From: an uncultured Pelagibacteraceae bacterium | Lineage (GTDB): Bacteria > Pseudomonadota > Alphaproteobacteria > Pelagibacterales > AG-422-B15 | Length of the DNA: 64,000 nucleotides | NCBI GenBank assembly: GCA_902571005.1 | Contig: CACGAG010000001.1 | Location: 40,449-104,448 of the forward strand | Reading direction: 5' to 3' | Shown here: positions 3,772-29,585 of the stretch, piece after piece | Layout of the letters: the number at the start of each line of letters is the position of its first letter | Numbering within the stretch: position 1 is the stretch's first letter | Notes under the pieces: model-generated | Told to the model about the DNA's origin: nothing | Database searches by the model: none | What the model saw: only the letters and a program-made list of their open reading frames with translations | Position numbers and translations under genes: made by a program

Positions 3772-6338
3772 TTTTCAACAACAATGTTAAGTATTTTATT
3801 TGGAACATAGATTGATTTTAATATATTTTTTCCCGATAAGGCGTCTGTTATGTTTTTGATATTTTTAATTTCTTTTTCAACCTCTTTTTCTGATGTATCT
3901 TTTGAAACAATAACTTCTCCACGCCGTTTACCATTTATCTGAATGACAACAGTTACCTCTTTATTTTCTAAATACTTTGTGTTTGTTGTTGGCCAAGGCT
4001 CGTCCATAATTGATTTATTTTTTCCAACTACTGACCAACATTCTTCAGCCAGGTGAGGAACCATTGGCTCGATTACTCTAATTAGGATGTGCAATGCCTC
4101 ATTCATTGCCTCCTTGCCTTCCTCATCTTCTATCTGAAATTTAGAAATTGCGTTAACTATCTCAAAAACTTTTGCAATTGAGACATTCATTTGAAATTTC
4201 TCAATGCTCTGAGTTATGGCATGAAGGTTTTGATGAATAATTCTTATAAAATCTAGCGATTTTCCCTGATATGTTTTGTCATTACTGTTTGTTGTTTGTT
4301 TAAGGTTTTTCCTATTATTTTGAACAATCGTCCAAATTTTCTGACAAATCTTCCAAGCCCCATTAATACCCGAGTCCGTCCAATTAATGTCTTTTTCAGG
4401 GGGACTGTCAGATAACATAAACCATCTTGCTGAATCGGCTCCATATGTACTTATTATTGATTCAGGATCAATTACGTTTTTCTTTGATTTCGACATCGAT
4501 TCAATTTCTCCCATAGTAACCTGTTTACCAGTGGATATTTGAAAATACTTAGAGTTTTTCTTCTCTACATCATCAGGATAAACCCAGGCATCAGACTCAT
4601 TTTGAAACGTGTGATGACAAACCATGCCTTGTGTAAATAGGCTATCAAAAGGCTCATCCATTCCTTTGATGCTGAGTGCTTTAGTAAAAAATCTAGAGTA
4701 CAATAAATGTAGAATAGCATGCTCAACACCGCCAACGTATTGATCGACTGGCATCCAATAATTAATTTCATCTAAGTTAAAGGGCTCTTTTGTCTCAAGC
4801 GGTGAACAAAATCTCAAAAAATACCATGCTGAGTCGACAAAAGTATCAAGCGTGTCTGTTTCTCTGATAGCATTCATTCCTGTTTCAGGACACTTTGTGA
4901 ATTTCCACTCTGGATGATTGTTAAGAGGATTACCGGGTATGCTTAAATCAATATCATCTGGCAATTCTAATGGCAGTTGGTCCTCAGGGACTTCAATTAC
5001 CTTACCGTCTTCTCTATACATAATTGGAATTGGGCATCCCCAATATCTTTGCCGAGAGACACCCCAATCGCGTAACCTAAAGTTCGTAGTTTTCTTTCCA
5101 ATATGAAGTTCTTCCACTCTTTTGATGATTTCTTTCTTAGCTTCTTCAATAGATAGACCATTTAAAAATTGAGAATTAATAAGTTTACCACTTCCAGTGT
5201 AAGCAGTTTTTTTATCAAGTTCGATATTGTCAGATGGATTTATCACTGGGATAATTTCTAAATTATATTTATTAGCAAAATCTAAGTCTCTTTGGTCATG
5301 CGCAGGACAACCATAAATAGCTCCAGATCCATAATCCATTAAGATGAAGTTTGCTATAAAGACTGGAAGTAATTTATTCTCAATAAAAGGATGTTTAATA
5401 AATAGCTCTGTCGGAACGCCAACTTTCTCGTTTTTGGCTATCGATTCTTCGCTTATTTTATGTGATCTTAATTCATTGACTTGATTATTAAGGGTTTCAC
5501 TTTGTTTTATTAACCTGTCCACAAAGGGATGAAAGGGAGACAAAGCACAAAAAGTAGCTCCAAAAATGGTGTCAGGACGAGTCGTAAATATTCTTAACTT
5601 TTCATTATTGAATTCATCTAATTTTGAAGAAATAACAAAATCAATTTCACATCCAAAAGATTTTCCAATCCAATTTTTTTGCATTATTCTGACTTTTTCT
5701 GGCCATCCAGACATATCATCCAAAGCTTTAAGAAGGCTTTCCGCATAGTCAGTAATTTTAAAAAACCATTGAGAAAGTTTCTTTTGTTCTACCTCAGCTC
5801 CTGATCGCCAACCTTTACCATCAATAACTTGTTCGTTTGCAAGCACCGTATTTTCAACTGGATCCCAGTTCACTAGCGACTCTTTTTTGTAAATTAAATT
5901 TTTTCGGTAAAATTTTAAAAAAAGTTTTTGTTGGTTTTGATAATAAAGTTTGTCACATGTTGCAATTTCTCTAGACCAATCAATTGAAAGACCCATTTGC
6001 TTTAATTGATTTTTCATCGTCTCAATATTTTCATAAGTCCAAGTTTTTGGAGAAGTTTTATTTTCTATTGCCGCATTTTCAGCTGGCAAGCCAAATGCGT
6101 CCCACCCCATTGGATGCATCACGTTAAATCCTTGAGCTCTTTTGTACCTTGCAATTACATCCCCCAATGTATAATTGCGGACGTGCCCCATGTGAATTTT
6201 TCCGGAAGGGTACGGAAACATTTCAAGTATGTAATATTTTTTTTTATTTTTATCTATCTTGCATTCAAATAACTTATTTTCAGACCAATAAGATTGCCAC
6301 TTCTTTTCAATAATTTTTGAATTATATTTTTCTGACAT
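3768..6338 (-). CDS. leuS: Leucine--tRNA ligase
   Basis: 856 aa. Class I aaRS motifs '[15 protein letters not shown]' (HIGH) and 'KMSKSKKN' (KMSKS). Full-length LeuS architecture. Confidence 0.97.
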
Positions 6339-6356
6339 GAATCACTATTTATGAAC

Positions 6357-6893
6357 TTAAAGCTCTGAAGCAATTGCTAATGATCTTGCTGAATTTAAAA
6401 TACTTTGTTTTATTTTTAAGCTTTGTTCTGAATTAATACCTTGATCAATCCACTTTTCACCATCTGAAGATTGCGTAAATAGCGATACCGTTACACTCTC
6501 ATCTGTCATTTCTTGATCAACGACTCGTATGTTTATTTTGATTCTACTTTGGCCATCATCTAGACTGTACCAGTCCGTAACAATAATCCCTGCTGTTGAG
6601 TCAACAGAGATCAAAGGCATAAATCCAACTTTATCTAATGCCACACTAAATGTTATTGAGTTAACTTCGAAGTTCGTGCCTGAACCAAGTCCCAGTGACC
6701 CAAGAATGCCCTGGCCGGAGTTCTCTATTATTGAACTTCCGCTTGGCAAACGAAGATCTCTATCTTCAGCTTTTTCCGTTAATACCTTTTCTTCCTGAGA
6801 TTTATAAGACTCAGGTTCATCCTGTAACCCTTGAATCTGGGCACAAGAATTAATAAAAATAAATAAAATTGCTAAAATTATAGGTTTTTTCAT
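6357..6893 (-). CDS. DUF3576-family lipoprotein
   Basis: Signal peptide plus lipobox (FINSC). The core 'VNSITFSVALDKVGFMPLISVDSTAGIIVTDWY...RIKINI' matches my memory of the alphaproteobacterial DUF3576 pattern. Not searched. Confidence 0.6.
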   Translation of the reverse strand: MKKPIILAILFIFINSCAQIQGLQDEPESYKSQEEKVLTEKAEDRDLRLPSGSSIIENSGQGILGSLGLGSGTNFEVNSITFSVALDKVGFMPLISVDSTAGIIVTDWYSLDDGQSRIKINIRVVDQEMTDESVTVSLFTQSSDGEKWIDQGINSEQSLKIKQSILNSARSLAIASEL

Positions 6894-16252: not shown

Positions 16253-16327
16253 GCGAGTGTAGCTCAGTGGTAGAGCGAAACGTTGCCAACGTTTAGGTCG
16301 AGGGTTCGACTCCCTTCACTCGCTCCA
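16253..16327 (+). tRNA. tRNA-Gly (anticodon GCC)
   Basis: Hand-folded cloverleaf: acceptor GCGAGTG/CACTCGC, D arm GCTC/GAGC, anticodon arm AAACG-TTGCCAA-CGTTT, T arm GAGGG-TTCGACT-CCCTT, encoded CCA. 75 nt. Confidence 0.93.
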
Positions 16328-21710: not shown

Positions 21711-23651
21711 CTACTTGTTCATTCGATTTTCAACAAGATCATTAACCACAGCTGGTTCTGCTAATGTAGATGTATCACCTAAATTACTGTAATCATTTTC
21801 AGCAATCTTTCTTAAAATTCTTCTCATAATTTTTCCTGATCTGGTTTTTGGAAGTCCGGGTGCCCATTGAATTAAATCTGGTGATGCGATTGGACCAATT
21901 TCTTTACGAACCCATGCAACAAGTTCTTTATATAATTCGTCTGATGTTTCTTCACCTGCATTGAGCGTAACGTACGCATAGATACCTTGCCCTTTAATAT
22001 CATGAGGGTAACCAACAACCGCTGCTTCACTAACTTTAGGATGTGCAACGAGAGCAGACTCAACTTCTGCTGTTCCCATTCTGTGACCAGATACATTTAT
22101 AACATCATCCACTCTTCCAGTGATCCAGTAATAACCATCTTCATCTCTTCTGCAGCCATCACCAGTAAAATATTTTCCATCAAATTGTGAAAAATACGTT
22201 TCAATGAACCTTTTATGATCTCCGTAAACTGTTCTCATTTGTCCAGGCCATGAGTCCGCTAAACAAAGCGAACCCTCGCATGCACCTTCAAGAATTTTTC
22301 CTTCTGCATCTAAAATTTCTGGCTTTACTCCAAAGAAAGGTTTTGTTGCTGACCCTGGTTTTTGCGCAATGGCTCCTGGAAGAGGTGTTATTAAAATACC
22401 TCCAGTTTCAGTTTGCCACCATGTGTCAACAATCGGACATTTTTTGTCACCAACGACATTATAATACCACATCCACGCTTCTGGATTGATTGGCTCGCCG
22501 ACTGTCCCAAGTAGTTTTAGAGAGGACCTGCTGGTTTTTTTAACAGGATCTTCGCCTTCTCGCATTAATGCCCTAATTGCAGTTGGTGCAGTATAAAAAA
22601 TATTAATTTTGTGTTTATCGACTACTTCCCAAAATCTTGAGGCACTTGGATAGTTTGGGACACCTTCAAACATCACAGTGACAGCCCCATTTGCTAATGG
22701 ACCATATACAATGTAACTATGTCCTGTAACCCAACCTACATCTGCGGTGCACCAATAAACGTCACCCTCTTTATAATCAAAGACATATTGATGTGTCATG
22801 GAAGCATAAACCATATAACCACCAGTGGTGTGCATAACTCCTTTTGGTTTGCCAGTTGATCCAGATGTATACAATATAAAGAGAGGATCTTCTGCTGACA
22901 TTTCCTCAGGGGGACAATTATCAGATTCTTTTTCAGTTAGCTCATGATACCAAACATCTCTTTCATCAACCCAGGCAATATCCCCGCCAGTTCTTTTAAC
23001 AACAATACAATGACGTACACCACCTGAAATCGAAATGGCTTCATCCGTATTTTTCTTTAATGGAATTGCTTTACCGCCTCTTACTCCTTCATCTGCTGTG
23101 ATCACAATATCAGATTTACAGTCACTTATTCTTCCAGCTAACGAGTCTGGAGAAAAGCCTCCAAATACAACAGAATGAATTGCCCCAATTCTTGTACATG
23201 CTAGCATTGCGTAAGCCGCTTCAGGAATCATTGGCATATAAATAGTTACACGATCACCTTTTTTAACTCCAAGAGACTTCATGCCGTTAGCAAGTTTTGA
23301 TACCTCACTGTGTAATTCTTTATAAGATATGTGTTTTGAATCTGCTGGATCATCGCCCTCCCAAATGATTGCGGTTTGATCTCCTTTATCTTTTAAATGT
23401 CTATCAATACAGTTGCTTGATGCGTTGAGTGTACCGTCGTAGTACCACTTGATTGAGAAATTATCTTTATTGTAAGAAACATCTTTTACTTTTGTATACG
23501 GTTTAATCCAATCAATTCTTTTACCGTGCTCACTCCAGAATTCTTCATTGTTATTGAGAGAATTTTCATACCATTCATTATATTTATCTGCATTAATCTG
23601 TGCCTCTGCAGACCATTCACTGCTCACTTCAAACTTTTCATTTTCACTCAT
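21711..23651 (-). CDS. acs: Acetyl-CoA synthetase
   Basis: 646 aa. AMP-binding motif '[13 protein letters not shown]', 'WWQTETGG' and C-terminal '[16 protein letters not shown]'. Confidence 0.97.
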
Positions 23652-23663
23652 AAGGAAATTATT

Positions 23664-24080
23664 TTATTTGATACCGCCGAGATTGCAAATAATTGTCCAC
23701 GACTTTTTATCAATTGGCATAACCGAGAGGCGCGACTGTTTAACCAAGGCTAAGTGATTGAGTTTTGGATGCTCTTTTATTTGAGATAAGTTTACTTTGT
23801 TTTTAAGGGCCTTTACAGCTGCGACGGATACCATGCCAAAACGCTTTGATTTGTCTGTAGGATCAGGATGATATTTCTTAACGACTTTTACTATACCAAC
23901 AATATCCCTTTCTTTGACCGAGTGATAAAAAAAACAAAGATCTCCTTTCTCCATTTTTTTCATATTATTGGATGCTTGGTAGTTTCTGACGCCATCCCAG
24001 CCCTCACCTTTACTGCCGGCTTTCACCTGTTGTTCCCACGACCATGTTTCAGGTTCAGATTTCATTAACCAGTAGTTCAT
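23664..24080 (-). CDS. EVE (PUA-like) domain protein
   Basis: 138 aa. 'MNYWLMKSEPETWSW', 'WDGVRNYQASNNMKKMEKGDLCFFYHS' and 'IVGIVKV' form the canonical EVE/Thy28-like pattern. Confidence 0.85.
   Translation of the reverse strand: MNYWLMKSEPETWSWEQQVKAGSKGEGWDGVRNYQASNNMKKMEKGDLCFFYHSVKERDIVGIVKVVKKYHPDPTDKSKRFGMVSVAAVKALKNKVNLSQIKEHPKLNHLALVKQSRLSVMPIDKKSWTIICNLGGIK
24060..24080. repeat. Outer direct repeat, left copy (21 bp)
   Basis: TTTCATTAACCAGTAGTTCAT. On the minus strand this is ATGAACTACTGGTTAATGAAA, codons 1-7 of the EVE gene. Identical to 27493-27513. Confidence 0.9.
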
Positions 24081-24152
24081 CTAATTGTTTCTCCAATGTT
24101 TACGCCATTTTTGAATCATTGGACTTTCATTTTCCTTGGTTTTTTTAAAACA

Positions 24153-24177
24153 CGTACAACACAAAGTACTACACATT
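24153..24177. repeat. Inner direct repeat, left copy (25 nt, tandem GTACWACACA)
   Basis: CGTACAACACAAAGTACTACACATT. 23/25 identical to 27368-27392. Ends 2 nt before the hsdS-like stop codon. Confidence 0.8.
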
Positions 24178-24179
24178 TA

Positions 24180-25577
24180 TTAATTATAAAAATCTTTAAA
24201 ATTTATTTCCTCATCAATATATTTAATTATTTTTTCAGTTAAAGTTTTCTTTTTGGATAATAAATCAAAACTCTGTTTAACTTTTTTAGAAATAAAATCA
24301 TGAAACTTTTTATCAGACAGAGGAATCTCAAACTGTTTAATTCTATTCGCAAGGGTTGGAATAGTCGATTGAATTACAGTATTTTTTTTAAATTGTACTT
24401 CGCCTATAAATTCAGAAAGTAAACAACCAAAAATATAAAATTGTGAAATATCTGATTTATTTTTAATTTTTAAAGAACGTATGTGACTTTGAAAAACATA
24501 ATCAGTATTCGTGAGAATAGATGGAATTCCAACTTTTCCATCATTATTGATAATAAGATCATATTTATCGAATTTATTATTCTGTAATTTTTTAAAATTT
24601 TTATCACAGAAAAAATCAGGAATTAAATCAACTTGATTATTATATATGTCAGATGTTCTGATAAATGGTAAACTATCATCAGATTTTTCTGTATAAATTT
24701 CATAATTAATACTTCCAATCTCATCACCTTTTATTGGATCGATGTAATTATCTAATTTTACAATCTTATATTTTTTTTTAATATGAGCCTTAATTTTATC
24801 CCAAGTGGGATCAAAAAAAGTAGCATTCCATATATTTGAATCTTTCATATTATTAATTTCGGCAGAAAAAATATTAATTTTCTCGAATAGTTTGTCATCT
24901 AATTTAAAATAATCTCTAAAATTTTTCTTAGTTGCATCAATTGAATTTAAAAATTTTTTTTCAATTTTTATTATTTCTAAAAGAATATCAGCAAGAATTT
25001 TTTGTTTGTTCATCTTCAATAATGGTATTTTAAATTTTTTTAATTTATTCAATGAAACCAAACCTTGATTATTTCCTCCACTACTAGAGTATGTTTGGAT
25101 TTTTGAAAAAAAGGACATAAAGAAGCAAGTTAAATACTCTGGCAAGATTTTTGATGAATTCGTTTTTATATATGCAATATTTCTTGGAAGAGAGGTTGTA
25201 TATTTGACATAATCTTTAAAAATTGCTGTTAAACCAACGGTTCCAACTACAGATAAAAGTACAGTATCATTATCAAGAATTTTATTTTTAAATTTGTCGC
25301 TGTCCAATTTAGATAAAAATATATTATCTCTTACATCTATAATTCCATTTTTTAAATTATGTACATATAGGTACTTTATTTCACCATCTGTTATGGGTTT
25401 AACACCAGTATGAATTCCATCACTAACCAGTGGAAAATATTCAGTATTTCCAAGGTTTATAAATTTTATATTTGATTTATTTAAAAATTTATCTCTTGCT
25501 TTAAGAAAATGAAAATATCTAGGATTAAATCTTTTTTCCTGAATTATCGAATTCAAATCAATCTCGAAGTGATTCAT
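24180..25577 (-). CDS. Restriction-modification specificity subunit (HsdS-like, two target-recognition domains)
   Basis: 465 aa. Two halves each have a variable region followed by a conserved helical spacer ('LNKLKKFKIPLLKMNKQKILADILLEI...' and 'LANRIKQFEIPLSDKKFHDFISKKVKQSFDLL'). ATGA overlap with the upstream methylase gene. Confidence 0.8.
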   Translation of the reverse strand: MNHFEIDLNSIIQEKRFNPRYFHFLKARDKFLNKSNIKFINLGNTEYFPLVSDGIHTGVKPITDGEIKYLYVHNLKNGIIDVRDNIFLSKLDSDKFKNKILDNDTVLLSVVGTVGLTAIFKDYVKYTTSLPRNIAYIKTNSSKILPEYLTCFFMSFFSKIQTYSSSGGNNQGLVSLNKLKKFKIPLLKMNKQKILADILLEIIKIEKKFLNSIDATKKNFRDYFKLDDKLFEKINIFSAEINNMKDSNIWNATFFDPTWDKIKAHIKKKYKIVKLDNYIDPIKGDEIGSINYEIYTEKSDDSLPFIRTSDIYNNQVDLIPDFFCDKNFKKLQNNKFDKYDLIINNDGKVGIPSILTNTDYVFQSHIRSLKIKNKSDISQFYIFGCLLSEFIGEVQFKKNTVIQSTIPTLANRIKQFEIPLSDKKFHDFISKKVKQSFDLLSKKKTLTEKIIKYIDEEINFKDFYN

Positions 25578-27322
25578 TGCTTACTCCATTGTAAAAACTT
25601 CTTTGTAATTATTGGTAAATCATCTTCATCAATTAGATCACCCCTTCTATTGTGACCACAAAATTTTGCAATAGACATGAAAACTTTATAATTTTTTTTT
25701 GGATTACTTGTTTTTTTAAAAATAAGAACACTTGTTTTGGTTGTTGTATGTGGAGCAAATGCTTCTATAGGAATATCAATTATTGCTAGAAGTTGGCCAT
25801 GCCTAATTAAATAATCTCTTATATAAGACATTTTATCGTTACCAAAAATTCCGTCTGGCAAGACTATACCAAGTCTTCCACCTTCCTTAAGCAATTCAAA
25901 ACATCTTTCAATAAACAATATTTGTGGAACCTCATCTTTTTTTAATGAACCTCTAACAAATTTTCCAGCTTTATCTTTTTTTCTCATATATCCAAATTCA
26001 TACTGTGATAGTATTTCTTTATTGGAGATTTTCATTTTAGAACCAAAGGGTGGATTAGTAATAATTATATCAAATTTTTCAGGCTGAACTTCGATTTTTG
26101 TTTTTGATTGCCATTCGCTAAATTTAACTAAAGAGTTTTCACAAAACACTCCAGATCTCCCATCTCCCAAGAGTGCCATATATGCTTTTGCAACCTTACT
26201 TAAAAAATTATCTTTATCTATTCCTCTGATATTTTTAATAGCAATTTTTTGTTTCTCAGCCTCAATTTGTGACTCTGGCCATTTTAACATTGATCCATTT
26301 TTTTCTATTTTATTCCATTGGTATTTTAGGGTTTCTACAAGAAAACCACCACTACCACATGCTGGGTCTAAAACTAATTCATCTTCATTTGGATTTATCA
26401 TTTCTACAATCATTCTAATCACATTTCTTGGTGTAAAAAATTGCCCTTGCCCCCCTTTTAATGAAGGTCCAATAAATACTTCAAAAGCATCAGCAATTGC
26501 ATCTCTAGAAGAATCTGAAAGACTAAATCTTTGTATTTCTCCTACCACAAACGCTAAAGAAATTTTATCCAGAGTTATTTTGTCGTTTTTATCTATTACA
26601 TCATCAAATTTTTTTACAACCTCTTCAAAAATCTTCAAAATTCTATCTTTCACTACTTTTGGATCTTCATCAGTTCCCAATCTAAACTTTGGTGCATCCT
26701 CAGGTTTAGTAAATCTTTCATCATATATTTTACAAAAAATTAAATTAATCATTTGTTGAGCAAGAACTTCATCTCTTGTTGCTCCAACTACATTAGGTGC
26801 TAAAAAATTTCTAATTGTTTTAAATAGTGTTTTTAGATTTCTTGCTGGCTTTAGATCTTTTCTTTTAAAATTACCTATATCTTCTAGTCGTTCACCATAC
26901 TTAGGAAAAGCAGGTAATTCATTGTAGAAAACCTTACCTTTTGAATAAGTTTTGTGTAATATAAATTTTTCTTCACCATTAAACCAAATTCCAATACTCG
27001 CATCTGAAAATTTTAAATAATCTTTAAGTTGTTTTATGCCAGATTTTTTATCAGGTTGTTTGCATTCAACTACTATTTCTAAATCTTCGTCCTTTTTTTT
27101 TGAATTTTTAAATATAGCAATATCAACAGGGTAACTTGATTTTTCTGCTGATGGTCTTTCCCTTACCCTATATTGCGGTCTAGTTTGTATATTTGCTATA
27201 GGATAATCGTAATCTTCCACTAAAATTTTTGAAAATGGTTGGGTCGCCTCTCTTTCCTCTGGAGTATTTTTTACTTCAACACCACTGATAAAATCGATAA
27301 TTATTTTATCATTTTTTGCCAT
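25574..27322 (-). CDS. Fusion of N-terminal PD-(D/E)XK (HsdR_N-like) nuclease domain and gamma-class N6-adenine DNA methyltransferase
   Basis: 582 aa. N-terminus 'YPVDIAIFKNSKKKDEDLEIVVECKQP' gives D...E-x-K. SAM motif I 'VLDPACGSGGFLV' and catalytic motif IV 'IIITNPPFG'. 'GQFFTPRNVIRMIVEMI' is typical of the N6_Mtase/HsdM family. Confidence 0.85.
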   Translation of the reverse strand: MAKNDKIIIDFISGVEVKNTPEEREATQPFSKILVEDYDYPIANIQTRPQYRVRERPSAEKSSYPVDIAIFKNSKKKDEDLEIVVECKQPDKKSGIKQLKDYLKFSDASIGIWFNGEEKFILHKTYSKGKVFYNELPAFPKYGERLEDIGNFKRKDLKPARNLKTLFKTIRNFLAPNVVGATRDEVLAQQMINLIFCKIYDERFTKPEDAPKFRLGTDEDPKVVKDRILKIFEEVVKKFDDVIDKNDKITLDKISLAFVVGEIQRFSLSDSSRDAIADAFEVFIGPSLKGGQGQFFTPRNVIRMIVEMINPNEDELVLDPACGSGGFLVETLKYQWNKIEKNGSMLKWPESQIEAEKQKIAIKNIRGIDKDNFLSKVAKAYMALLGDGRSGVFCENSLVKFSEWQSKTKIEVQPEKFDIIITNPPFGSKMKISNKEILSQYEFGYMRKKDKAGKFVRGSLKKDEVPQILFIERCFELLKEGGRLGIVLPDGIFGNDKMSYIRDYLIRHGQLLAIIDIPIEAFAPHTTTKTSVLIFKKTSNPKKNYKVFMSIAKFCGHNRRGDLIDEDDLPIITKKFLQWSKQ

Positions 27323-27367
27323 ATATTTAATTCTAACAAATCAAATTAAATTTATCTAAGAAAAAGT

Positions 27368-27392
27368 CGTACTACACAACGTACTACACATT
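27368..27392. repeat. Inner direct repeat, right copy (25 nt)
   Basis: CGTACTACACAACGTACTACACATT, which is GTACTACACA twice with a 2-nt spacer. Lies 45 nt upstream of the methylase start codon. Confidence 0.8.
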
Positions 27393-27492
27393 CGCTGATT
27401 TTAAATAGCTTTAATCGACATTTTTAATTGTAAAGATAAGGTAAAGGTTAGTGGGAGTCGGTAGAGTCTTAACGATGTATCACAAGTGTTGG

Positions 27493-27513
27493 TTTCATTA
27501 ACCAGTAGTTCAT
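27493..27513. repeat. Outer direct repeat, right copy (21 bp); orphan 5' fragment of the EVE gene
   Basis: TTTCATTAACCAGTAGTTCAT, beginning 1 nt after the gpsA stop. On the minus strand it opens only MNYWLMKPTLVIHR* (27472-27513). Confidence 0.9.
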
Positions 27514-27514
27514 G

Positions 27515-28513
27515 TTATTCCTTTGTGATTGGTCTATTTAAAAGTTCTTGAATTGTAACATCAATATTTTTCTTACGGTACAAAACTTTGTAAATAGCGT
27601 CATTGATTGGCAAATCCAATTTTTTTTCAATAGATAGTTTTTTTAATGCCCTAACAGTGAATACTCCCTCAGCGACTGAAAATTTTTTTTCAATTATTTG
27701 ATTAAGCGTTTTACCTTTCGCAAGATCAATTCCTAAAGAAAAATTTCTAGACTCTTTTGATGAGCATGTGAGAAATAAATCTCCCATACCAGATAGTCCA
27801 GCGAGCGTACTTTTTTTTGCGTTCATGGATTGCGCTACAATTTTTATTTCTGCAAAACTTCTCGATATAATTGAAGCAACTGCGTTTTCTCCATATTTTT
27901 TTCCAAATACAATCCCGCTGGCAATTGCATAAATATTTTTTAGAGCGCCCGCTATTTGTGAACCAATAATGTCATCAGATAAATAAGGTCTCAATGTTGG
28001 AGACTTAATCAGTTGAGCAATTTTATTAGCAACTCTTCCACTTTTTGAAGCAACGACAGTAGCAGCTGGTAAACCTTTTGCAATCTCAGCTGCGAAATTT
28101 GGTCCTGATATGATAGCAATTTTATTTTTTGGAAACATAGAAGTAACTATCTCACTTGGTAATTTCAGACTATTCATTTCTATTCCCTTAGAGCAGCAAA
28201 CAAATATTGTACTAGTTTTAATATCTTTTTTTAATTTTAATAAATTGGTTGATAAGTATTGAACAGGTGAAACTAAAAATAATATTTCACATTTGACTAC
28301 ATCGAGAATTGATGTTGTACATTTTATTTTCTTACTTAATTTAATCTTTGGCAAATATCTTTTGTTTTCAGATATTTTATTAATATTATCACAAACACTT
28401 TTTTCCTTTGCCCATAAAATAACTTTTTCTTTTTTTGATATAATATTTGCTAATGCAGTTCCCCATGCACCTGCACCGATCACACCGACTTTATATTTAA
28501 TATTATCCTTCAA
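27515..28513 (-). CDS. gpsA: NAD(P)H-dependent glycerol-3-phosphate dehydrogenase
   Basis: 332 aa. 'VGVIGAGAWGTALA' Rossmann motif and 'GALKNIYAIASGI'. Confidence 0.93.
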   Translation of the reverse strand: MKDNIKYKVGVIGAGAWGTALANIISKKEKVILWAKEKSVCDNINKISENKRYLPKIKLSKKIKCTTSILDVVKCEILFLVSPVQYLSTNLLKLKKDIKTSTIFVCCSKGIEMNSLKLPSEIVTSMFPKNKIAIISGPNFAAEIAKGLPAATVVASKSGRVANKIAQLIKSPTLRPYLSDDIIGSQIAGALKNIYAIASGIVFGKKYGENAVASIISRSFAEIKIVAQSMNAKKSTLAGLSGMGDLFLTCSSKESRNFSLGIDLAKGKTLNQIIEKKFSVAEGVFTVRALKKLSIEKKLDLPINDAIYKVLYRKKNIDVTIQELLNRPITKE

Positions 28514-29585
28514 CGGCTCTCTTACCCTTCATAAAAATAGCATTCTTATCCAGAGGCCATCTTGGCCGGGGCCTAAAATTTAATTTATTAAATTTGTTTC
28601 TTTCAAATCTTTCAATTCCAGCTAATGCAATCATTGCACCGTTATCAGTACAATACTTGATCGACGGAAATAAAAATTCGCAATTTTCACTAGTTTCAAG
28701 TTGTTTCAGTGAATTACGAATACTTTTATTTGCAGCAACGCCTCCGGCGACAACAACTTTTAAATTTTTTTTAGATTTTACGATCCGTTTATATTCATTT
28801 ATTGCATTTTGAGTTTTGGTGAGAATAATTTTATTTATAGTTGCTTGAAATGATGCTGACATGTCTTTTTTAAACTTTTCTGTACACCTATTTTTAGCAA
28901 CAATATTTGCCACTGCAGACTTCAAGCCTGCAAATGAAAAATGTGCATTTTTTTCATGAATTAATGGCATAGGAAGTTCAAATTTATTTTCATTACCTAA
29001 AGCAGCATATTTTTCAATTTCGGGGCCACCTGGATAACCCAATTTAAGAAGACGGGCAGTTTTATCAAATGCTTCACCCAATGCGTCATCAATTGTTGTG
29101 CCAATTCGTTTGTAGCTATTAAAGTTTTTTATGATCGTGTATTCCGTATGACCCCCTGAAACTAACAACAACAGATAGGGGTATTCTATTTCTCTTTCTA
29201 GTTTAATTGAAAGAGCATGCCCCTCTAAATGATTTACGGCGATGAAAGGCTTATTTAAGTAATGAGCAAGTGTTTTTCCAGCTACAACTCCAACGAGAAG
29301 TCCACCTAGCAAACCAGGTCCGGCGGTTGCAGATATTGCATCAATTTTCTTAAACGTCATTTTTGCATCAGATAAAGCTTTGAGTACCAATTTATCAATT
29401 ATATCGGAATGCGCACGCGCCGCTAACTCTGGTACAACACCACCATAAAATTTATGAATATCAATTTGAGACTTCACTACATTCGACAGAACTCTGAATT
29501 TATTATCTATTTTCTCAACGATCGAGACTGAAGTCTCATCACAACTCGATTCAATTCCTAATACTCGTATTATTTTTTTTGTCAT
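28503..29585 (-). CDS. tsaD: tRNA N6-adenosine threonylcarbamoyltransferase
   Basis: 360 aa. 'VLGIESSCDETSVSIV', 'NHLEGHAL' and 'VVAGGVAANKSIR'. Confidence 0.95.
   Translation of the reverse strand: MTKKIIRVLGIESSCDETSVSIVEKIDNKFRVLSNVVKSQIDIHKFYGGVVPELAARAHSDIIDKLVLKALSDAKMTFKKIDAISATAGPGLLGGLLVGVVAGKTLAHYLNKPFIAVNHLEGHALSIKLEREIEYPYLLLLVSGGHTEYTIIKNFNSYKRIGTTIDDALGEAFDKTARLLKLGYPGGPEIEKYAALGNENKFELPMPLIHEKNAHFSFAGLKSAVANIVAKNRCTEKFKKDMSASFQATINKIILTKTQNAINEYKRIVKSKKNLKVVVAGGVAANKSIRNSLKQLETSENCEFLFPSIKYCTDNGAMIALAGIERFERNKFNKLNFRPRPRWPLDKNAIFMKGKRAVEG

What the first reader, a model, noticed from the sequence alone, without database searches (positions are those of the whole stretch)
24153..27392. 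Second, inner pair of 25-nt direct repeats made of a tandem GTAC(A/T)ACACA decamer hugging the two R-M genes
- **The repeat.** CGTACAACACAAAGTACTACACATT (24153-24177) and CGTACTACACAACGTACTACACATT (27368-27392) are 23/25 identical and in direct orientation.
- **Internal structure.** Each is itself two copies of GTACWACACA separated by 2 nt.
- **Position.** The left copy ends 2 nt before the S-gene stop codon. The right copy lies 45 nt upstream of the methylase start. The pair therefore brackets exactly the two-gene unit and nests inside the 21-bp outer repeat (order DR1-DR2-[genes]-DR2'-DR1').
- **Possible roles.** A short tandem protein-binding-like motif at both cassette ends is what a recombination site served in trans would look like. 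It could also be a shared operator or terminator module of a family of exchangeable cassettes. I know of no described site with this sequence.
Basis: seen in the sequence. Interest (0 to 1): 0.62.

Follow-up and report, generated by a model that had tools for sequence, protein, structure and literature searches.

The report
Integrase arm sites flanking SAR11 island
The two 25-nt repeats are real. They are most likely accessory binding sites for a site-specific integrase, sitting in the left and right attachment sites of a 3.4-kb integrase-less restriction-modification island inserted in the first codons of a conserved SAR11 (Pelagibacter) gene, a spot where dozens of different gene cargos are found in the ocean.

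Summary
**Observation:** confirmed. The four exact decamers are the only ones in 64 kb (0.16 expected).

**What it is:**
- The window is a Pelagibacteraceae (SAR11) chromosome.
- Ten conspecific loci have gpsA abutting the EVE-domain gene, with no decamer. The window carries a 3,433-bp insertion there, bounded by a 21-bp duplication of EVE codons 1-7.
- In about 130 SAR11 loci the motif sits at a fixed distance from that core: 73 nt on one side, 102 nt on the other. It always marks the line between conserved arms and variable cargo, with 22-32 cargo types.
- In relatives the same module lies directly upstream of a divergent 551-563 aa tyrosine integrase. That integrase belongs to ~8.5-kb satellite-like elements (SSB, primase, RusA-like).
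- A ~240-bp [motif-73-core-102-motif] junction occurs in tandem arrays and in one circularly permuted contig.

**Best reading (0.68):** the repeats are lambda-style arm-type integrase sites in attL/attR of an integrase-less cargo island that is mobilised in trans. Strand exchange more likely occurs in the outer 21-bp repeat.

**Not shown:** protein binding, the exact crossover point, and any mobility of this particular copy.

**Novelty:** a new member of a known kind.

The parts
24153..24177 (-). Inner repeat, EVE-proximal copy ('M(P)'). The 22-mer core is 24154-24175, which reads TGTGTAGTAC-TT-TGTGTTGTAC on the coding (minus) strand. It starts 2 nt after the S-gene stop.
   Evidence: It is the same kind of site as 56 'P-type' sites in SAR11 loci.
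27368..27392 (-). Inner repeat, distal copy ('M(D)'). The 22-mer core is 27369-27390, which reads TGTGTAGTAC-GT-TGTGTAGTAC on the minus strand. It lies 45 nt upstream of the 582-aa gene. In relatives this position lies 25-45 nt upstream of an integrase gene.
24081..24153 (-). P-arm: a 73-nt conserved non-coding arm between M(P) and the EVE start codon. It ends in GGAGAAACAATTAG-ATG and so supplies the ribosome-binding site for EVE.
   Evidence: The distance is 73 nt in 39/58 sites and 71-74 nt in 53/58. The arm is 93-99% identical between loci whose EVE coding DNA is about 70% identical and whose cargo differs.
24060..24080 (-). Outer repeat, proximal copy (core). It is EVE codons 1-7, ATGAACTACTGGTTAATGAAA, and is the functional start of the EVE gene.
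27391..27492 (-). D-arm: a 102-nt conserved non-coding arm between the distal core and M(D).
   Evidence: The distance is 102 nt in 27/38 sites and 101-103 nt in 35/38. The arm is conserved across loci with different cargo and different upstream host genes.
27493..27513 (-). Outer repeat, distal copy (core). It duplicates EVE codons 1-7 one nucleotide after the gpsA stop. It opens a 14-codon ORF, MNYWLMKPTLVIHR* (27469-27513).
   Evidence: In other hosts this copy carries host-specific EVE N-terminal variants joined to the same D-arm.
24081..27513 (-). The whole inserted unit, 3,433 bp, relative to conspecific empty sites. Because of the 21-bp duplication it can equally be written 24060-27492.
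   Evidence: - Ten conspecific loci have gpsA-TAA-(C/A/-)-ATG-EVE and no decamers.
- Empty-site contigs occur in metagenome runs, where cassette depth is about 10 against 300-500 for the flanks.
- A ~99% identical unit sits in L059, with identity collapsing at the cores.
- GC is 0.25-0.30 against about 0.35-0.41 in the neighbouring kilobases.
25574..27322 (-). Cargo gene 1: a 582-aa fusion of an N-terminal HSDR_N_2 (nuclease-type) domain and an N6-adenine DNA methyltransferase.
   Evidence: Pfam PF13588, PF02384 and PF07669. The best NCBIfam match is MADS2, at 418 bits, below its cut-off of 720.
24180..25577 (-). Cargo gene 2: a 465-aa specificity (S) subunit.
   Evidence: Pfam PF01420. NCBIfam matches MADS5 and the type I S subunit, both below cut-off.
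23664..24080 (-). The target gene: an EVE-domain protein of 138 aa.
   Evidence: PF01878, E 2.6e-47.
27515..28513 (-). The upstream host gene gpsA. Its stop codon abuts the EVE start in empty sites.

Best explanation
**What the repeats are.** The two 25-nt repeats are the arm-type (accessory) binding sites of a lambda-style attachment module. That module is used by a family of large, divergent tyrosine integrases carried on small satellite-like elements of SAR11.

**The module.** The free or junction form is about 240 bp: [tandem decamers]-73 nt-[21-bp core = EVE codons 1-7]-102 nt-[tandem decamers]. When present, the integrase gene starts 25-45 nt after the second decamer pair.

**Integration.** Recombination with the chromosomal EVE start (attB) splits the module.
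- One decamer pair plus the 102-nt arm ends up next to gpsA. This is the attR-like side.
- The other pair plus the 73-nt arm ends up in front of EVE. This is the attL-like side, and the arm supplies a new ribosome-binding site.
- The 21-bp core is present at both ends.

This is exactly the nested order DR1-DR2-[genes]-DR2'-DR1' seen in the window.

**The window's element.** It carries only a two-gene R-M-like cargo and no integrase. It could be excised and re-integrated only by an integrase supplied in trans by a related element, or exchanged by homologous recombination through the conserved arms.

**Shown:**
- the anatomy;
- the insertion relative to empty sites;
- the fixed spacing of motif and core;
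- the position of the motif at the conserved/variable boundary;
- the link to integrase genes;
- tandem arrays and a circularly permuted contig.

**Inferred:**
- that the integrase N-terminal domain binds the decamers;
- that strand exchange is inside the 21-bp core;
- that this copy is still mobilisable.
For: 1. **Insertion against an empty site.** Ten loci encoding the identical EVE protein have gpsA directly abutting EVE. None has a decamer within 12.4 kb. Empty-site contigs also occur in metagenome runs, where the cassette has depth of about 10 against 300-500 for the flanks.
2. **Same unit in a distant host.** L059 is a different lineage (EVE 69% and tsaD 52% aa identity, no gpsA). It shares ~99% identical DNA from core to core. 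Divergence is 0.6% in the cargo and 2.7% in arms plus motifs, then jumps to 19% in the cores and 39-58% beyond them.
3. **Fixed spacing.** The distance from motif to ATG is 73 nt in 39/58 sites. The distance from core to motif is 102 nt in 27/38 sites.
4. **Boundary position.** Of 149 motif sites, 64 share one right flank (the P-arm) but have 32 different left-flank clusters. Another 39 share one left flank (the D-arm) but have 22 different right-flank clusters. Cargo types include R-M, an autotransporter, an EEP nuclease and type ISP.
5. **Link to an integrase.** The motif lies directly upstream of 551-563 aa proteins in L195, L176, L255, L218, L221, L198 and L190.
   - These match PHROG_1 'integrase' at E 1.4e-15, and PF00589 at E 7e-4, below threshold.
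   - They are followed by gp2.5-like SSB, a DUF5906 primase and a RusA-like protein.
   - The far end of such elements again ends in a motif plus P-arm (L195, L228).
6. **Junction module in arrays.** A ~240-bp junction [M-73-core-102-M], homologous to the junction predicted from the window, occurs inside arrays in L184, L195, L215 and L234. L215 is a seamless circular permutation.
7. **Host-specific distal cores.** Distal cores carry host-specific EVE N-terminal variants behind different upstream genes, all joined to the same D-arm at ...AAA|CC....
8. **Two integrase subfamilies, one motif.** They are 43% identical and have different arms and targets, yet share the decamer. They are most alike in the N-terminal ~80 residues (about 58%, my count on the alignment) and in the catalytic C-terminus (about 67%).
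9. **Known model.** The lambda att site is 240 bp, with arm-type sites bound by the Int N-terminal domain (PMC4880445).
Against: - **No binding test.** Pfam finds no arm-binding domain in the integrases.
- **No integrase in the window.** The window has no integrase homologue, so current mobility is unproven.
- **The crossover point is unresolved, and the data are awkward for a simple conservative exchange.**
   - Both window cores equal the naive host core.
   - Both L059 cores differ from the window's at 4/21 positions although the arms are 97% identical.
   - Association of the core halves with arm or host is weak.
   - This could mean that cargo plus arms were swapped into pre-existing modules by homologous recombination.
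- **Events at the motif itself exist.** L251 is cassette-motif-cassette, L233 is a cargo-less element, and L145 has five decamers.
- **L215 is ambiguous.** Its circular permutation could reflect a tandem duplicate rather than a circle.
- **Not seen in virus collections.** The integrase family was not found in GenBank phages or in IMG/VR with the searches possible.
Confidence: 0.68

Rival explanations
1. Integron-like reading. The tandem decamer is itself the crossover site, analogous to attC or attI. Cassettes are cut and joined exactly at the motif by a recombinase acting in trans. The 196-nt stretch between two motifs in arrays is then just another small 'cassette'.
For: - The motif sits exactly at the conserved/variable boundary.
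- L251 joins two different cassettes through a single motif. The switch of parentage falls inside the second decamer.
- L233 has two motifs 66 nt apart with no cargo.
- All cassettes share one orientation.
Against: - Conspecific empty sites lack the motif and both arms entirely, so there is no resident 'attI'.
- The unit shared with L059 extends through both arms to the 21-bp cores.
- The fixed 73/102-nt spacing to the core is unexplained by this reading.
- No hairpin potential: z-scores run from -0.64 to +0.57.
- No integron integrase lies next to the array.
- L251-type joints are equally explained by deletion between two direct 22-bp repeats.
Confidence: 0.12
2. Regulatory or other protein-binding role carried by the element. 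The decamer pair would be an operator for a repressor or excisionase controlling int or cargo and EVE transcription, or an iteron-type replication site of the satellite, rather than an integrase arm site.
For: - The distal pair lies 25-45 nt upstream of the first gene of the element, which is int or the R-M gene.
- Weak promoter-like matches flank it: 27427->27398 and 27358->27330 on the minus strand.
- The proximal pair precedes the EVE leader.
- Direct repeats with a 12-bp period are typical of many DNA-binding proteins.
Against: - The promoter-like count does not exceed shuffles: 27 against 23.6.
- The motif is retained on integrase-less, replication-less cargo units of many kinds.
- The proximal copy follows the last cargo gene and has no element gene downstream.
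- Constant spacing to the recombination core on both sides points to a role in the recombination complex. An Xis/RDF site, however, would also fit that.
Confidence: 0.12
3. Passive homology. The repeats and arms have no protein partner any more. They persist as conserved flanks that let SAR11's very active homologous recombination swap cargo between resident modules.
For: - The arms are 93-99% identical across hosts and cargos.
- The cores stay host-like while the arms and cargo are shared.
- The window has no integrase.
Against: - A passive flank does not explain first insertions into naive sites.
- It does not explain exact decamer conservation with free spacer letters (logo).
- It does not explain the rigid spacing, or the same decamer next to two integrase subfamilies that have unrelated arms.
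Confidence: 0.08

Closest known systems
Attachment sites of heterobivalent tyrosine integrases (phage lambda Int type: a core flanked by arm-type sites, att site of about 240 bp)
   Same: - Two-level architecture: a short core duplicated at both ends of the integrated element, plus repeated ~10-bp motifs in both arms at fixed distances.
- The whole module is about 240 bp.
- The module lies next to the int gene.
- After integration each junction keeps one arm (PMC4880445).
   Different: - The sequence is unrelated.
- Each arm has the same tandem pair, in the same orientation.
- The target is the first 7 codons of a protein-coding gene rather than an intergenic site or a tRNA.
- The integrases are 551-563 aa and so divergent that Pfam barely detects them.
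- Binding and accessory factors are untested.
- The window's element has no integrase.
Marine phage satellites / virion-encapsidated integrative mobile elements (VEIMEs) reported in Pelagibacter (PMC9618062)
   Same: The integrase-bearing relatives (L195, L255, L218) are ~8.5-kb units with a tyrosine integrase, SSB, a primase and a RusA-like protein, integrated in SAR11 chromosomes.
   Different: - No structural or packaging gene or helper phage was identified here.
- The paper's main text, as searched, gives no att site, EVE target or decamer. Its supplements were not available.
- The window's unit has none of the satellite genes.
Integrase-less, att-flanked islands and tandem accretion at one site (cis-mobilisable elements of streptococcal ICEs; tycheposon arrays in Prochlorococcus; recalled from my own knowledge, not tested)
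   Same: - Cargo-only units are bounded by functional-looking att sites.
- Several units sit in tandem at one hot spot.
- Decay series of integrase genes occur (int remnants in L234 and L146).
   Different: The host, target gene and integrase family differ. Units can be as small as ~1.6 kb (L215).
Integron cassette arrays
   Same: There is one chromosomal hot spot. Cassettes are co-oriented and mostly promoter-poor. A repeated site sits at each cassette boundary. The enzyme can act in trans.
   Different: There is no IntI. There is no attC-like folded site. Empty sites have no platform. A 196-nt arm-core-arm segment lies between cassettes.

Membership tests
att module of a heterobivalent (arm-site-using) tyrosine integrase | A tyrosine recombinase is genetically associated with the site. 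| tested here: met
   - Met in relatives, not in the window.
- The motif lies 25-45 nt upstream of 551-563 aa ORFs in 7 loci.
- These match PHROG_1 integrase at E 1.4e-15 and PF00589 at E 7e-4, below the gathering score.
- R...(K/H)xxR...H...Y-like motifs (TGLRREE, KMLRKT, TRHK, LEGLY) were read by eye.
- The window has no homologue.
att module of a heterobivalent (arm-site-using) tyrosine integrase | A short core sequence shared by element and target is duplicated at both ends of the integrated element, and an empty attB exists. | tested here: met
   There is a 21/21 duplication. Ten conspecific empty sites carry a single copy. Empty-site contigs occur in metagenomes.
att module of a heterobivalent (arm-site-using) tyrosine integrase | A repeated motif, distinct from the core, lies in both arms at a defined distance from the core. 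| tested here: met
   Tandem decamers lie 73 nt from the core (39/58 sites) and 102 nt from it (27/38 sites). The ~240-bp junction form is seen in arrays.
att module of a heterobivalent (arm-site-using) tyrosine integrase | The integrase N-terminal domain binds the arm motif. The crossover maps to the core. | not testable with these tools
   - No arm-binding Pfam domain was found.
- Sequence comparisons leave the crossover position unresolved.
att module of a heterobivalent (arm-site-using) tyrosine integrase | An excised circular form carries the rejoined module. | tested here: inconclusive
   L215 (1,574 nt) is a seamless circular permutation carrying cargo plus the full module. A tandem duplicate would assemble the same way. 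No go-back joints at the att sites were seen for the window's own cassette, but only assembled contigs of the runs were available.
Integron (attC/attI with IntI) | attC sites are imperfect inverted repeats that fold as single strands. | tested here: not met
   Both motif regions were folded as DNA on both strands. Z-scores ran from -0.64 to +0.57. The motif is a direct repeat.
Integron (attC/attI with IntI) | A resident platform (intI plus attI) lies next to the array. | tested here: not met
   The flanking genes are tsaD, gpsA, EVE and acs. Empty sites carry no platform sequence.
Transposon with target-site duplication | A transposase and terminal inverted repeats, with a short target-site duplication. 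| tested here: not met
   The unit has no transposase domain. There are no terminal inverted repeats at its ends. A 21-bp duplication at one fixed target in all hosts is unlike transposition.
Phage satellite / VEIME | An integrase plus replication genes (primase or helicase) in a 5-25 kb integrative unit. | tested here: not met
   Not met for the window's unit, which holds only the R-M-like gene and the S gene. Met for the related units L195, L255 and L218.
Type I-like / type IIG-like restriction-modification (the cargo) | An N6-adenine methyltransferase domain, a specificity subunit and a nuclease part. | tested here: inconclusive
   - PF02384 and PF01420 are present.
- There is an N-terminal HSDR_N_2 domain but no HsdR motor subunit.
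- The MADS2 and MADS5 models match below their cut-offs.
- Activity and recognition site are unknown.

The most novel reading that the evidence does not exclude
SAR11 is usually described as nearly free of mobile elements. On this reading it has a cassette-capture hot spot at the start of its EVE-domain gene.
- A family of integrase-less mini-elements, some as small as ~1.6 kb, each carries a complete ~240-bp attachment module plus defence or surface genes.
- They are excised as circles and re-inserted, in tandem arrays, by the integrase of co-resident satellite-like elements. They are hitchhikers on hitchhikers.
- This would give an integron-like flow of dozens of cargo types through the most abundant marine bacterium.
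Probability: 0.35. Interest if true: 0.72.

Novelty: new member of a known kind. Interest (0 to 1): 0.55.

Why it matters
- **Gene flow in SAR11.** SAR11 genomic islands have been reported to lack canonical mobile elements apart from tRNA-linked cassettes (PMC11796062). Here a protein-coding gene start is a precise, population-wide integration hot spot.
   - It has a recognisable ~240-bp signature and at least 22-32 different cargos.
   - It is linked to a previously uncharacterised large tyrosine integrase on satellite-like elements.
- **A searchable marker.** The decamer pair can be used to find laterally moving defence and surface genes in marine metagenomes. Many contigs break at or near the motif, which suggests, though it was not tested, that short-read assemblies fragment at this variable boundary.
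- **A compact system to reconstitute.** The attP/attB/integrase set could be rebuilt in the laboratory.
- **Ordinary in principle.** Integrases with arm sites, and integrase-less att-flanked islands, are well known.

Tried and rejected
- **Chance repeat.** Rejected.
- **Terminator, attC-like hairpin or structured RNA.** There are no terminator-like sites, no folding signal and no Rfam family in the region.
- **tRNA-linked island.** The only tRNA lies 8 kb away, at 16253-16327.
- **'Landing pad' resident in all genomes.** Rejected, because conspecific empty sites lack both arms and motif.
- **Arms more diverged than cargo, read as proof of separate histories.** Arms show 2.7% divergence against 0.6% in the cargo. 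The 2.7% is close to my rough estimate of synonymous divergence in the cargo (about 14 silent changes over ~750 sites, roughly 2%). The comparison is not decisive.
- **Genome-collection scan too permissive.** Most of its 119 hits are unrelated tandem repeats in other phyla. Only the 9 Pelagibacteraceae or Alphaproteobacteria loci were useful. That scan could not be repeated.
- **IMG/VR.** The motif scan gave no SAR11-type site. The integrase scan gave nothing, and GenBank phages gave nothing.
- **Searches that failed.**
   - The PDB sequence search found nothing.
   - The exact-protein look-up of the 582-aa gene found no record.
- **Literature.** No paper in the library contains the decamer in a relevant context. 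'Pelagibacter, resolved' and the VEIME paper do not mention this site in their main text, as searched.

Full report
**1.
- The two 25-mers are at 24153-24177 and 27368-27392. They are 23/25 identical and in direct orientation. Each is two GTACWACACA decamers with a 2-nt spacer.
- The left copy ends 2 nt before the stop codon of the 465-aa S gene. The right copy lies 45 nt upstream of the ATG of the 582-aa gene.
- An outer 21-bp perfect repeat brackets them at 24060-24080 and 27493-27513.
- Exact decamers occur four times in the 64 kb, only at these two sites. Shuffles give 0.16, and 0 of 100 reach 4.

**2. Gene context.** All genes here are on the minus strand.
- acs: 21711-23651.
- An EVE-domain gene: 23664-24080.
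- The S subunit: 24180-25577.
- A fusion of an HSDR_N_2 domain with an N6-adenine methyltransferase: 25574-27322.
- gpsA: 27515-28513.
- tsaD: 28503-29585.

The outer repeat is the first seven codons of EVE (ATGAACTACTGGTTAATGAAA), duplicated one nucleotide after the gpsA stop. GC falls to 0.25-0.30 across the two cargo genes. No RNA family and no tRNA lies nearby.

**3. It is an insertion.**
- I looked up contigs encoding exactly the window's EVE protein. This returned ten loci: long-read contigs of up to 1.4 Mb and a single-cell genome. In all ten, gpsA ends one to two bases before the EVE start.
- Their junction reads ...GGAATAA(C/A/-)ATGAACTACTGGTTAATGAAATC... None has a decamer within 12.4 kb.
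- The window therefore equals the naive site plus 3,433 bp.
- In marine metagenome runs the flanks have depth 300-500 and the cassette about 10. One contig joins 24080 to 27515. Other contigs run from the distal core straight into the EVE body.

**4. The same unit sits in a distant host.** L059 is a Pelagibacteraceae single-cell genome. Its EVE is 69% and its tsaD 52% identical at the protein level, and it has no gpsA at this spot.
- It carries the same unit.
- Divergence is 0.6% in the cargo and 2.7% in the arms plus motifs. It is 19% in each 21-bp core and 39-58% outside.
- The shared segment is therefore bounded by the outer repeat, not the inner one.

**5. The motif is a family feature of one SAR11 locus.**
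- The genome scan found nine Pelagibacteraceae or Alphaproteobacteria loci.
- The metagenome scan reached its limit at 120 marine contigs.
- Read on the coding strand, the motif is TGTGTWGTAC-NN-TGTGTWGTAC. It appears in two contexts.
   - 'D-type' sites have a conserved upstream arm, with the cargo starting downstream.
   - 'P-type' sites follow the stop codon of the last cargo gene. Downstream comes a conserved 73-nt leader and then the EVE ATG.
- Of 149 sites with enough flank, 64 share one right flank and have 32 left-flank clusters. Another 39 share one left flank and have 22 right-flank clusters.
- Cargo includes:
   - the R-M-like pair;
   - a 669-aa autotransporter with a lectin domain;
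   - an endonuclease/exonuclease/phosphatase protein with two unknown proteins;
   - a type ISP enzyme;
   - a SHOCT-domain protein;
   - several sets of unknown proteins.
- Many contigs break at or near the motif.

**6. Spacing is rigid.** The distance from motif end to ATG is 73 nt in 39 of 58 sites, and 71-74 nt in 53. The distance from core end to motif start is 102 nt in 27 of 38 sites, and 101-103 nt in 35. This holds although the arm sequences themselves range from 60 to 100% identity. Within the decamers nearly every position is fixed, except the W and the spacer.

**7. Arrays and a circle-like contig.**
- In L184, L195, L215 and L234 a P-type motif is followed 210-219 nt later by a D-type motif. 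The window predicts 218 nt.
- The segment between them aligns with the junction predicted from the window: P-arm, EVE codons 1-7, then D-arm.
- Units therefore sit in tandem, each with its own arms.
- L215 is a 1,574-nt contig whose end runs seamlessly into its start. It contains two small genes plus the complete module. This is either an excised circle or a tandem duplicate.

**8. The enzyme.**
- In L195, L176 and L255 the D-type motif is followed within 25-45 nt by a 562-563 aa ORF.
- It matches PHROG_1 'integrase' at E 1.4e-15.
- A 551-aa relative, 43% identical, sits behind the same decamer pair in L218, L221 and L198. Its arm is unrelated and its chromosomal neighbourhood is different. 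It reaches PF00589 at E 7e-4, below Pfam's threshold.
- A third variant, L190, shows two motif pairs 208 nt apart and then the integrase gene.
- Downstream genes are a gp2.5-like SSB, a DUF5906 primase and a RusA-like resolvase.
- The far end of such ~8.5-kb units again carries a motif plus P-arm (L195, L228).
- These units resemble the integrase- and primase-bearing marine phage satellites reported in Pelagibacter (PMC9618062).
- Remnants of the integrase gene occur behind the motif in L234 and L146.
- The window itself has no homologue.

**9. Which side is host and which is element.**
- Distal cores differ from host to host. Examples are MSKKLWLMK, MGKSYFLLK and MKKQYWLLK. They follow different upstream genes, but all join the same D-arm at ...AAA|CCAACACTTGT.... 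This is what a site-specific insertion into each host's own EVE start would leave.
- The crossover point inside the core is not resolved.
   - Both window cores equal the naive host core.
   - Both L059 cores differ from the window's at 4 of 21 positions.
   - Codon 2 tracks the arm only weakly, and positions 16-21 track the EVE body only weakly.
- Cargo plus arms may also be exchanged between resident modules by homologous recombination.
- Events at the motif itself exist:
   - L251 joins two cassettes through one motif;
   - L233 has 66 nt between its two motifs;
   - L145 has five decamers.

**10. Interpretation.**
- A core duplicated at both ends, identical ~10-bp repeats at fixed distances in both arms, a total of about 240 bp, and a position next to int: this is the architecture of lambda-type att sites. 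There the integrase N-terminal domain binds arm-type sites while its C-terminal domains act at the core (PMC4880445).
- The two integrase subfamilies share the decamer but not the arms or the target. They are most alike in the N-terminal ~80 residues and in the catalytic end. That fits a shared arm-site specificity, but it is only suggestive.
- Binding, directionality factors and present-day mobility remain inferred.

**11. Rivals.**
- An integron-like crossover at the motif explains L251. It does not explain the empty sites, the arm-inclusive shared unit or the spacing. The motif also does not fold.
- A regulatory, RDF or iteron role cannot be excluded without footprinting. It fits the cargo-only units less well.
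- Passive homology does not explain first insertions, or the same decamer next to two integrase subfamilies.

**12. Novelty and limits.**
- I found no description of this site, this target or this decamer.
- Supplements of the satellite paper were not readable.
- The principle is well known, so I rate this a new member of a known kind. It is of moderate interest because of the organism and the breadth of cargo.

Noticed in passing
window 27469-27513 (minus strand): The distal duplication of the EVE start opens a 14-codon ORF, MNYWLMKPTLVIHR*. Its sequence is kept in a peptide-like way across divergent D-arm families (PTLVIHR, PTLLILR, TLLVILT, TISTIH). This may reflect core-type integrase sites rather than coding.
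   Followed up: partly
window 25574-27322 and 24180-25577: The cargo best matches the MAD2 methyltransferase (418 bits, cut-off 720) and the MAD5 S subunit (93 bits, cut-off 400) of the methylation-associated defence system. Only these two genes are present. The methyltransferase has an N-terminal HSDR_N_2 nuclease-type domain, and there is no motor subunit.
   Followed up: partly
window 27514: The single base between the gpsA stop and the EVE-type ATG is polymorphic in natural populations. It is C, A or absent in conspecific loci. It is left out in part of the depth in two metagenome runs.
   Followed up: no
L215:1-1574: This 1,574-nt Tara contig is a seamless circular permutation. It holds two small unknown genes plus the full ~240-bp module. 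It is the smallest unit seen and may be an excised circle.
   Followed up: partly
L145:3546-3603; L154:1015-1048: The 12-nt unit can expand. L145 has five tandem decamers. L154, L230 and L238 have a third, degenerate decamer.
   Followed up: no
L218:1300-3095; L146:700-900; L190:700-960: A second integrase subfamily (551 aa) uses the same decamer pair with an unrelated arm and another chromosomal neighbourhood. In L146 this is downstream of an msrB-like gene, identified by eye only. In L146 the integrase gene is deleted after its first codons. L190 shows a third variant, with a TGTGCTGTAC version of the motif.
   Followed up: partly
L269:1980-2395 and 6001-6417: One long-read contig carries two gpsA-EVE-acs copies about 4 kb apart. 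The first EVE copy is called as 126 aa. This may be a local duplication or an assembly artefact in the noisy, pilon-polished contig.
   Followed up: no
L111:3411-5591; L225:2538-4517; L155:1143-2987: Some SAR11 lineages carry a TPR plus GT41 glycosyltransferase gene between tsaD and the EVE site. It is in the opposite orientation in L111 and L225, and co-oriented with EVE in L155. Only the proximal motif is detectable there.
   Followed up: no
window 16253-16327: The only tRNA in the window is tRNA-Gly (GCC). It is not associated with the island.
   Followed up: no
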